The position numbers and the translations under genes are program-made. DNA of 64,000 bases from a candidate division FCPU426 bacterium (lineage in GTDB: Bacteria > Oederibacteriota > PGYV01 > Palsa-1178), in contig CAWIXE010000002.1 in NCBI GenBank assembly GCA_963840035.1, forward strand, positions 1,408,001 through 1,472,000, written 5' to 3'. Position 1 is the first letter of the stretch, and each line of letters opens with the position of its first letter. Under the pieces are notes generated by a model. That model made no database searches, was not told the origin of the DNA, and saw only the letters and a list, made by a program, of their open reading frames with translations. This document shows, in pieces, positions 14,126 to 14,661 of the stretch.

Positions 14126-14287
14126 TGGAGCTGATGACCGGAGTCGAACCGGTGACCTACTGATTACGAATCAGTTGCTCTTGGATGCCCTTGCGAGCTT
14201 CAGCGAGCAAATATTAGATCAACGGCCCATCTACTTCTCATCCTGTCAGCCAGTCCTATCGGCTGACACCGGCTGAGCTACATCAGT
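14126..14287 (-). pseudogene. Second tRNA-Thr(CGT) copy interrupted by an 86-bp insert in the D loop (after nt 20)
   Basis: 14126-14181 is identical to the 3' 56 nt of the intact tRNA; 14268-14287 matches its 5' 20 nt with 2 substitutions; insert at 14182-14267. Confidence 0.85.
14182..14267. mobile_element. Structured 86-bp insertion element, copy 1
   Basis: Shares an identical 26-nt core ttgcgagcttcagcgagcaaatatta and a gtcag..ctgac terminal hairpin with 14569-14653. Confidence 0.7.
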
Positions 14288-14305
14288 GCTCTGAATTAAA
14301 ATGTA

Positions 14306-14381
14306 TGGAGCTGATGACCGGAGTCGAACCGGTGACCTACTGATTACGAATCAGTTGCTCTACCGACTGAGCTACATCAGC
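14306..14381 (-). tRNA. tRNA-Thr (CGT)
   Basis: 76-nt cloverleaf GCTGATGTAGCTCAGTCGGTAGAGC...TTCGTAA loop...GGTTCGACTCC...CCA. Confidence 0.97.
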
Positions 14382-14434
14382 CCTCAACGGTCATCTATTA
14401 TATACCTTTTTCTTTTTAAAGAACTAAATCTATA

Positions 14435-14510
14435 TGGTGCCGAGAGACGGATTTGAACCGCCGACGCACAGATTTTCAGTCTGTCGCTCTACCGACTGAG
14501 CTATCTCGGC
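14435..14510 (-). tRNA. tRNA-Phe (GAA)
   Basis: 76-nt cloverleaf GCCGAGATAGCTCAGTCGGTAGAGC...CTGAAAA loop...GGTTCAAATCC...CCA. Confidence 0.97.
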
Positions 14511-14557
14511 ACCTATTCGGTATCAGTACATTCGTAGCCAACTATCGCCTTCTAGTC

Positions 14558-14661
14558 CCGACTGAGCTAAGGCGCCATTGCGAGCTTCAGCGAGCAAATA
14601 TTAAATCAATAATCCCTCTACCTCTCGCCTTGTCAGATGCTACTGCATCTGACATCTCGGC
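14558..14661 (-). pseudogene. tRNA-Phe 5' fragment (nt 1-19) interrupted after nt 8 by an 85-bp insert
   Basis: Sense strand GCCGAGAT[insert]AGCTCAGTCGG is identical to the 5' end of the adjacent tRNA-Phe; the remainder is degenerate. Confidence 0.75.
14569..14653. mobile_element. Structured 85-bp insertion element, copy 2
   Basis: Colinear with copy 1, with compensatory changes in the stems. Confidence 0.7.

What the first reader, a model, noticed from the sequence alone, without database searches (positions are those of the whole stretch)
14126..14661. Conserved 85-86 nt structured element inserted at T^AG inside extra copies of two different tRNA genes
Seen: tRNA-Thr(CGT) and tRNA-Phe(GAA) each have an adjacent extra copy, and both extra copies are interrupted by the same element (14182-14267 and 14569-14653), in the same orientation. 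It lies between T and AG in both cases (GGT^AGAGC in the Thr D loop; GAT^AGCTC after Phe nt 8) with no obvious target duplication. The copies share 26 identical nt and differ elsewhere with compensatory changes: terminal hairpin GTCAGCC..GGCTGAC versus GTCAGATGC..GCATCTGAC, enclosing stem GGATG/CATCC versus AAGGCG/CGCCTT, inner stem TAGAT/ATCTA versus TAGA/TTTA. In both, the target T extends the first hairpin (T-GTCAG..CTGAC-A). Inference: a selected fold (hairpin plus three-way junction) that is either a tRNA-seeking non-autonomous mobile element or a miniature intron/processing element. It is far too short for group I/II introns and I recognise no named family.
Basis: partly seen in the sequence, partly recalled or inferred. 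Interest (0 to 1): 0.9.

Follow-up and report, generated by a model that had tools for sequence, protein, structure and literature searches.

The report
Folded mini-element that invades tRNA genes
The two inserts belong to an undescribed family of about 80-base, gene-less, conserved-fold elements that sit at fixed points in spare copies of tRNA genes and in other hairpin repeats, laid out like E. coli's long-unexplained tRNA-linked repeats, and they are likely tiny mobile DNAs moved by an enzyme that has not been identified.

Summary
The two inserts belong to a family with 27 copies in this genome. It was found in 18 of 24 genomes of the order and 0 of 75 others in the phylum. It has no Rfam match, no terminal inverted repeats and no target duplication. 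Covariation supports a 5' hairpin plus a closed multi-stem domain that brings both ends together. It is not tRNA-only: 13 of 27 copies sit in REP-type hairpins. In tRNA genes it occupies fixed sites after a T (8/9, D-loop, and T-loop on the opposite strand), beside an intact gene wherever the flank was assembled. Three relatives carry it in 5S-rRNA tails. Opposite-strand insertion points to a DNA target and argues against an intron. E. coli tyrT repeats carry an unrelated 68-nt insert at the same T-loop position. The target T is replaced by a purine in 13 of 43 copies and never by C, which suggests trapped, excision-defective copies. The best reading is a single-strand cut-and-join element moved in trans; the enzyme is unknown, and RAYT was not found in 6 of 18 carriers. 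The scan noted similar layouts in other lineages but has no note matching this sequence.

The parts
14126..14181 (-). 3' part (nt 21-76) of the interrupted tRNA-Thr(CGT) copy, identical to the intact gene
   Evidence: 56 of 56 identical
14182..14267 (-). element copy 1 (86 nt) in the D loop, T20^A21. P1 hairpin 14267-14245; linker purine 14244; P2 14243-14239 paired with 14187-14183; near-invariant G 14234 and A 14219; P4 14211-14191; last base 14182 (A, unusual)
14268..14287 (-). 5' part (nt 1-20) of the interrupted tRNA-Thr copy, with G1>A and T16>C; target T at 14268
14288..14305 (-). 18-nt spacer between the intact gene and the interrupted copy
14306..14381 (-). intact tRNA-Thr(CGT)
14435..14510 (-). 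intact tRNA-Phe(GAA)
14511..14557 (-). 47-nt spacer between the Phe fragment and the intact gene
14558..14568 (-). tRNA-Phe fragment nt 9-19, breaking off in the D loop
14569..14653 (-). element copy 2 (85 nt) at T8^A9. P1 14653-14632; linker purine 14631; P2 14630-14626 paired with 14574-14570; near-invariant G 14621 and A 14606; P4 14598-14578; last base 14569 (T)
14654..14661 (-). tRNA-Phe fragment nt 1-8; target T at 14654

Best explanation
This is a family of about 80-base gene-less elements found precisely after a T in hairpin-forming DNA (spare tRNA-gene copies, 5S tails, REP hairpins) on either strand, and it is likely a non-autonomous mobile DNA that a trans-acting single-strand cut-and-join enzyme (predicted HUH/Y1-like chemistry, enzyme unidentified) moves without target duplication. 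Shown: the family, its covarying fold, the fixed sites, the filled and empty twins, both orientations, and patchy presence among close relatives. Inferred steps: (1) when single-stranded, the element folds so that the target T pairs with the purine behind hairpin P1 and stacks on the closing stem P2, which puts both junctions side by side; (2) the enzyme would cut 3' of a pyrimidine at each end (the target T on the left, the element's last C/T on the right) and rejoin, so insertion and excision would be precise; (3) a hit in an essential tRNA gene survives only together with a short local tandem duplication that keeps one intact gene, after which the spare copy decays; (4) copies whose left T has become a purine would be unable to excise and so accumulate. 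E. coli tRNA-linked repeats would be the product of a different element of the same kind.
For: Family: 27 copies in G000; 18 of 24 order genomes and 0 of 75 others. Fold: 11 of 16 pairs show double-sided changes on an unfitted MAFFT alignment; 19 of 20 pairs and 89.4% paired cells on the model-fitted 106-copy alignment, against at most 47.6% when partners are slid. Precision: empty twins of repeat families B, C and D in G000 differ from filled copies by the insert alone (B also by the left T), with no duplication. Terminal inverted repeat of 0-1 bp in 102 of 106 copies. DNA target: 9 copies lie antisense in the T loop; single tRNA-Val copies carry two (G003, G005) or three (G006) inserts in both orientations. 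Mobility: the copy in REP family B is 88-89% identical to family A copies; near-identical copies sit in neighbouring Gly and Thr copies of G002; head-to-tail dimers occur in G003 and G023; at the Phe-Thr locus 7 of 21 order relatives carry a copy or remnant, and the pattern differs within genera g4 and g9. Junction rule: left T replaced in 13 of 43 tRNA-site copies (10 G, 3 A, 0 C) against 0 of 43 at -2 and at -3 (Fisher p 2e-7 against positions -2 to -9, copies not independent); last base is C or T in 98 of 106. HUH/Y1 enzymes cleave and join hairpin ssDNA and choose sites by DNA pairing (PMC8266576); G000 has 8 Y1 genes, one flanked by the same REP as a target.
Against: No enzyme is tied to it. 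None of 93 scanned ORFs (90 near copies in relatives, 3 in the window) is a transposase or nuclease; one has recombinase domains. No convincing element end lies near 17 Y1/GIY-YIG/DUF559/integrase loci of G000 (best E 0.19). Y1_Tnp was not found in 6 of 18 carrier genomes, among them G003 (98% complete, 14 copies), G010 (99%) and G018 (100%), and it is present in most non-carriers. G003 still holds GTAG-type REPs, so a lost RAYT is possible. The element lacks a conserved GTAG tag and has no fixed target tetramer. No clear replication-strand bias: 13 against 8 loci, p 0.38. G-U pairs and a near-invariant G/A pair of positions in the junction look RNA-like. Nine of the 13 own REP-site copies lie in one REP family, and 8 of those cluster with the family B copy in the tree, so some may have spread as passengers. 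No excised form or circle was observed.
Confidence: 0.55

Rival explanations
1. Nick-and-copy without a strand-transferase. A conserved small GIY-YIG nuclease (the single-domain gene at G000:C2:438186-438500; the label YhbQ/UPF0213-like is recalled) or a similar host nuclease nicks folded ssDNA at loop T's, and host repair or template switching copies the element in, making the duplications and fold-backs in the same event.
For: This gene is the only candidate tested that is present in 18 of 18 carriers and in just 1 of 6 non-carriers of the order. Small GIY-YIG (Ssn) nucleases cut ssDNA next to hairpin repeats (PMC11893778). Fold-back copies of tRNA arms and other hairpin inserts at the same sites are common.
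Against: The gene is also in 67 of 75 genomes of other orders, which lack the element. The 5 genomes lacking both belong to only two families, so the correlation rests on about two events. No element end lies near 25 GIY-YIG loci (best E 0.06). A hydrolytic nick does not by itself explain precise joins at both ends.
Confidence: 0.15
2. RNA-level element. The transcript is a small catalytic or processing RNA (a mini-intron or new ribozyme) that excises from or ligates into structured RNA or ssDNA after a U, and is fixed in DNA by reverse transcription and homologous recombination.
For: The first pair is U-A or U-G in 60 of 103 sequences. The fold juxtaposes both ends. G-U pairs outnumber A-C in P1 (10 against 3), and G/A junction positions are 105 of 106 each. 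Targets are stable-RNA genes, and one copy sits in a Leu anticodon loop.
Against: Antisense copies are as well conserved as sense ones. No insert-bearing gene was shown to be a sole copy. Reverse transcriptase was found in 2 of 24 order genomes and not in G000. There is no match to any Rfam ribozyme or intron above gathering score; the best is CPEB3 at E 0.28 on the other strand of one copy. The left U is lost in 30% of copies.
Confidence: 0.15
3. Host-domesticated structured RNA, such as a processing signal, decoy or small RNA released from tRNA and rRNA transcripts, spread by local duplication and gene conversion and kept for a function, as proposed for some E. coli TLRs.
For: The fold is conserved across 8 families. 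It recurs in leaders and trailers of tRNA operons. The three E. coli rRNA-linked TLRs are transcribed and bind Hfq and CsrA (PMC8144298).
Against: Gain and loss within genera, both orientations, many different tRNA species, copies in REP loops, and precise junctions at unrelated targets are hard to obtain without a dedicated insertion step.
Confidence: 0.1
4. Assembly or annotation artefact, or chance similarity of tRNA-adjacent repeats.
For: The Thr copy is not covered by the public runs laid. Tandem arrays and several relatives' copies abut contig ends or N gaps.
Against: The Phe copy is matched exactly by a separate contig. The family recurs in 17 other genomes and 9 of 18 metagenome loci, with compensatory changes.
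Confidence: 0.02

Closest known systems
E. coli tRNA-linked repeats (TLRs; tyrT/tyrV repeats, rttR/RtT, Rfam RF00391; rrA/B/F behind 5S), as described in PMC8144298
   Same: Gene-less repeats in tRNA and rRNA operons that duplicate part of the neighbouring gene. In MG1655, 4 of 4 tyr repeats carry a 68-nt insert at GGTTCG^AATCC, the same T-loop position as this family's antisense site; read on that strand it follows a T and ends in a pyrimidine. Both also occur at 5S rRNA tails.
   Different: No sequence or model homology in either direction, and a different fold. This family mainly uses the D-loop and 8/9 sites, also duplicates 5' parts, and lands in REP hairpins. In the passages read, TLRs are described as repeats or small RNAs of unknown function, not as mobile elements.
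REP/BIME/REPIN with RAYT (TnpA-REP), PMC8266576, PMC3733652
   Same: Small non-coding hairpin DNA, many intergenic copies, no target duplication, RAYT genes in the same genome; 11 own copies lie inside GTAG-tagged REPs.
   Different: No conserved GTAG tag, a multi-stem fold with covarying closing stem, and REPs are its target rather than its body. It inserts in REP loops and never in the GTAG tag (0 of 15 GTAG-REP copies). RAYT was not found in 6 of 18 carriers.
IS200/IS605 non-autonomous derivatives
   Same: No inverted repeats, no duplication, insertion 3' of a fixed base, hairpins near both ends.
   Different: No constant target tetramer (50 different ones in 106 copies). The 5' hairpin abuts the end, leaving no room for a guide. 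TnpB was not found in G000.
Bacterial MITEs (Correia, RUP, ERIC; PMC3184786)
   Same: Short, gene-less, folded, multi-copy, with empty and filled sites.
   Different: MITEs are defined by terminal inverted repeats and target duplications; both are absent here.
Ssn nucleases and their NTS/SRM hairpins (PMC11893778)
   Same: Hairpin repeats handled as ssDNA; such repeats are nested beside some copies.
   Different: SRM repeats flank their nuclease gene and are 20-50 nt inverted repeats; this element was not found beside any GIY-YIG gene examined.

Membership tests
E. coli TLR / RtT | located in a tRNA or rRNA operon next to the intact gene | tested here: met
   13 of 13 own tRNA-site copies; 39 of 56 in relatives by script plus 8 by eye, the other 9 at contig ends or N gaps
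E. coli TLR / RtT | ends in 18-19 bp identical to the 3' end of the upstream tRNA or rRNA (PMC8144298) | tested here: inconclusive
   Met in layout by the T-loop copies (9 of 106), often with a few changes. D-loop copies repeat up to 56 nt, and 8/9 copies such as the window's Phe copy repeat the 5' end instead
E. coli TLR / RtT | homology to RtT (RF00391) | tested here: not met
   RF00391 has no hit on any copy in G000; R1 and R2 do not hit the tyr repeats at E<0.4
REP/REPIN (RAYT substrate) | conserved GTAG tetranucleotide 5' of a 20-50 nt palindrome | tested here: not met
   GTAG occurs anywhere on either strand in only 31 of 106 copies and at no conserved column
REP/REPIN (RAYT substrate) | cognate RAYT gene flanked by the repeat | tested here: not met
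   No convincing hit near 8 Y1 loci of G000; Y1 not found in 6 of 18 carriers
REP/REPIN (RAYT substrate) | cleavage and strand transfer by RAYT on ssDNA | not testable with these tools
   needs purified enzyme
IS200/IS605 derivative | fixed 4-5 nt target 5' of the left end, read by a guide 5' of a subterminal hairpin | tested here: not met
   commonest left tetramer in 10 of 106; P1 starts at the first base
IS200/IS605 derivative | no target duplication and no terminal inverted repeats | tested here: met
MITE | terminal inverted repeats | tested here: not met
   0-1 bp in 102 of 106 copies
MITE | target-site duplication | tested here: not met
   empty and filled twins; at most one T can be read as duplicated; one Val copy has a 12-bp repeat
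Group I intron | U before the 5' site paired in P1, terminal G, catalytic core P3-P7 (features recalled) | tested here: not met
   T precedes in 62 of 106, but the last base is G in 6 of 106, length is 55-101 nt and RF00028 has no hit on copies
Hatchet ribozyme | P1 and P2 linked by three conserved residues; P2, P3, P4 nested through internal loops (PMC6561176) | tested here: not met
   linker is a single purine that pairs with the flank; P3 and P4 lie side by side; no Rfam hit at E<=10
IS110 bridge-RNA element | cognate DEDD recombinase in the genome; 2-nt core on both sides (feature recalled) | tested here: not met
   PF01548 not found in G000 (other genomes not searched); no 2-nt core repeat

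The most novel reading that the evidence does not exclude
These elements represent an unrecognised class of mobile nucleic acid, neither IS- nor RAYT-derived. Its fold synapses its own two ends, a conserved host enzyme or the molecule itself inserts and excises it 3' of loop pyrimidines in tRNA-shaped single strands, and this class built E. coli's tRNA-linked repeats and their look-alikes across bacteria.
Probability: 0.3. Interest if true: 0.85.

Novelty: new variant of a known kind. Interest (0 to 1): 0.62.

Why it matters
tRNA-linked repeats were first described in E. coli in 1978 and still have no known function or origin (PMC8144298). This family shows the same insertion register, but with enough copies, sites and empty twins to read a target rule (3' of an unpaired T, either strand) and a junction rule (pyrimidine at both cuts, purine enriched where copies would be trapped). 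That turns the question into assays with short synthetic substrates. If a precise, duplication-free insertion system works on an 80-nt substrate, it is new mobile-DNA chemistry or a new job for a known enzyme. It also explains false tRNA calls: ARAGORN reads such copies as extra tRNA-Thr or intron-bearing tRNA-Leu genes.

Tried and rejected
Rfam: only tRNAs at gathering score in the window, and nothing consistent on copies at E<=10 in the window region or 18 other own loci. Hatchet ribozyme: rejected on architecture. CPEB3/HDV-like: one weak hit (E 0.28), not repeated in other copies. IS110, RT and TnpB were not found in G000; RT is in 2 of 24 order genomes; DUF559 is missing from 8 of 18 carriers. 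Autonomous version with an internal gene: none seen near candidate enzyme loci. The 9 of 18 metagenome pattern hits without a model match showed only the P4 motif by eye. Phage or plasmid carriage: no match in phages, one 25-nt chance hit in plasmids, 0 and 2 viral pattern hits, the latter P4-only. Strand bias: none. Long-range covariation between target and element: not seen by eye, not formally tested; the top mutual-information pairs within the element were the known stems. Expression: the two RNA runs laid held only conserved tRNA pieces of other organisms, so they say nothing. A recalled link between YhgF and TLRs was checked and not found (0 mentions of TLR in PMC10201417). A mobilome preprint saw raised rttR-region coverage but ascribed RNA-gene signals to RNA/DNA hybrids, not circles. 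The copy tree is poorly resolved (10 of 79 branches starred) and was used only loosely. The host's taxonomy was not determined.

Full report
Observation. On the - strand the window holds an intact tRNA-Phe(GAA) (14435-14510) and an intact tRNA-Thr(CGT) (14306-14381) upstream of rpsP. Behind Thr lies a full second copy split at T20^A21 by an 86-nt insert (14182-14267). Before Phe lies a fragment, nt 1-19, split at T8^A9 by an 85-nt insert (14569-14653). The inserts share 26 identical bases. A 328-nt contig of run X1 reproduces 14494-14821 without a difference; the Thr copy is not covered by the 4 runs laid. Alone, the Phe insert folds better than shuffles (z -3.35) and the Thr insert does not (z -0.74), so the case for structure rests on the family.

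The family. An iterated profile search of the 3.46-Mb genome gives 27 copies at E<0.01, and the reversed genome gives nothing under E 8. A covariance model built from 26 copies (R1), then from 85 (R2), finds the element in 18 of 24 genomes of the order, 7 of 7 in the same family, and in 0 of 75 genomes of other orders of the phylum, searched with stricter filters. Of 18 metagenome loci found by pattern, 9 carry model matches. Phage and plasmid collections gave nothing real. The working set is 106 copies: 27 own, 74 from 17 relatives, and 5 from 4 metagenome loci (the other 5 matching loci were left out; four of them give the same scores as genome hits and look like the same DNA). Median length is 77 nt.

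Fold. Read in the tRNA-sense orientation of the window copies, the element is a 5' hairpin P1, one purine, and a 5-bp stem P2 whose 3' strand lies one base from the end. P2 encloses a short variable hairpin P3 and a hairpin P4 with a TC/TC internal loop that is fully paired in some copies. On an alignment not fitted to the structure, 11 of 16 pairs change on both sides. On the fitted 106-copy alignment 19 of 20 do, with P1 90%, P2 97%, P4 95% and the two P3 pairs 68.5% paired, and slid controls at most 48% (fitted alignments lean towards their structure, and kin are not independent). A G five bases after P2 and an A after P3 are each present in 105 of 106 copies, which suggests a non-canonical G-A pair (inference). 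The flanking target base pairs with the purine behind P1 as T-A or T-G in 60 of 103 sequences. In this fold both junctions meet at the P1/P2 stack.

Targets. Own genome: 13 copies in spare copies of 8 tRNA genes (6 D-loop, 6 at 8/9, 1 antisense in the T loop), each with the intact gene in the same locus; 13 in hairpin repeats (9 in one GTAG-REP family, 1 each in two others, 2 in a non-GTAG palindrome); and 1 partial. Empty twins of three of these repeat families show insertion directly after a T with no duplication. Relatives: 56 of 74 at the same three tRNA sites (29, 19 and 8), 4 in REPs and 14 elsewhere. By eye those 14 are 2 first units of head-to-tail dimers, 2 at Met 8/9 followed by a second unrelated insert, 1 in a Leu anticodon loop, 2 tRNA sites with cut or changed flanks, 3 in copies of the 5S rRNA 3' tail, and 4 unassigned (the 5S identity of L184 rests on likeness to L185, not on an Rfam hit). 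tRNA genes make up about 0.7% of non-coding DNA in G000. An intact cognate gene was found by script for 39 of the 56 and by eye for 8 more; 9 abut contig ends or N gaps. One tRNA-Val copy in G006 carries inserts at all three sites. Antisense copies show that the target is DNA, or at least not the tRNA itself.

Mobility. At the Phe-Thr-rpsP locus 7 of 21 order relatives have a copy or remnant, at different sites, and genus mates differ (G003 both, G005 Thr only, G007 none; G022 and G023 yes, G012 no). Copies in different REP families of G000 are up to 89% alike, and mean identity is highest within genome and site class (0.66 against 0.54-0.57), though the tree is poorly resolved. For 61 of 85 copies the nearest neighbour lies in another genome, so many copies are old.

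Junction rule. In 43 tRNA-site copies whose left flank aligns to the intact gene (at least 5 of 7 matches, a filter that lowers the background), the target T is replaced 13 times, by G (10) or A (3) and never by C, while positions -2 and -3 never differ. The element's last base is C or T in 98 of 106 copies. The simplest reading is that both cuts fall 3' of a pyrimidine, that excision is precise, and that a purine at the left junction traps the copy. This is inference; error-prone joining would also fit. It argues against useful splicing, which should conserve the U.

The mover. No transposase or nuclease gene was found among 93 ORFs scanned, chosen from 98 near relatives' copies plus 3 in the window. 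G000 lacks IS110, RT and TnpB matches and has 8 Y1, 2 short GIY-YIG, 3 DUF559 and 4 integrase matches, none flanked by the element. Y1 enzymes have the right chemistry: they cleave and join hairpin ssDNA and pick sites by DNA pairing (PMC8266576; abstract, introduction and passages seen). But the element has no GTAG tag, and Y1 was not found in 6 of 18 carriers, although one of them keeps GTAG-type REPs. A conserved small GIY-YIG is in 18 of 18 carriers and 1 of 6 non-carriers of the order, but also in 67 of 75 other genomes, so it is a lead only. I therefore commit to single-strand cut-and-join transposition in trans (0.55) and leave the enzyme open.

Comparison with what is known. I tested this: all 4 tyr repeats of MG1655 carry a 68-nt insert at the same T-loop register, following a T and ending in a pyrimidine on the antisense strand, and E. 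coli TLRs also stand behind 5S genes (PMC8144298, passages seen; Egan and Landy 1978 and Rudd 1999 not seen). There is no homology in either direction. So this works like a TLR-building insert but is not an RtT member. It fails the defining tests for REP, MITE, IS200/IS605 derivative, group I intron and hatchet ribozyme (membership table). Other papers seen: PMC11893778 (abstract, passages, sections 10 and 12), PMC3733652, PMC3184786, PMC10201417 and bioRxiv 10.1101/2024.07.17.603846 (passages), PMC6561176 (first sixth of the text). No supplements were read. Searches found no paper describing such inserts as a mobile family; the library omits most subscription papers.

Verdict. The feature is real. 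It is a new lineage-specific family of a recognised but unexplained kind of repeat, with unusually good evidence on targets and junctions. Interest 0.62; novelty: new variant of a known kind. There is a 0.3 chance that it stands for a new class of mobile element.

Noticed in passing
L101:1186-1401 (G005:C77): A tRNA gene of a relative carries a true group I intron (RF00028, 79 bits), with an element-bearing 5' fragment of the same tRNA just upstream.
   Followed up: partly
window 14268-14287 and L013 (G000:C3:508.9-509.7k): The interrupted Thr copy and all three interrupted Gly copies show the same G1>A and T16>C changes, in different tRNAs; possibly selection to disable decoy tRNAs.
   Followed up: no
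L028:71-216 (G000:C3:493.4k): The first bases of the only tRNA-Val(TAC) gene double as the element's closing strand; the partner strand has changed to match, and a 12-bp direct repeat brackets the element.
   Followed up: partly
L023 (G000:C1:968.9-969.4k): Behind tRNA-Ala(CGC) lie inverted copies of the tRNA tail with two stand-alone P1 hairpins, and the element's P4 there matches the local tRNA tail, suggesting template switching.
   Followed up: no
G000 C1:1048124, C1:1155607, C2:508128; L090: Other hairpin modules are inserted at the same REP-loop T and at the same Met 8/9 site, so these sites take several kinds of insert.
   Followed up: no
window 12233-14039: The ribosomal operon reads rpsP, KH-domain gene, trmD, rplS with no rimM-sized ORF between KH and trmD (the names trmD and rplS are recalled from the translations).
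   Followed up: no
window 1396-9282: A 2628-aa predicted surface protein with long Thr-rich repeat tracts.
   Followed up: no
G000:C3:2600-3000: A stretch far more GC-rich than the genome, in which ARAGORN calls a spurious intron-bearing tRNA-Ala; possibly foreign or contaminating DNA.
   Followed up: no
L189, L190, L193, L199: In family f6 the small conserved GIY-YIG domain lies at the end of a 790-820-codon open frame instead of standing alone.
   Followed up: no
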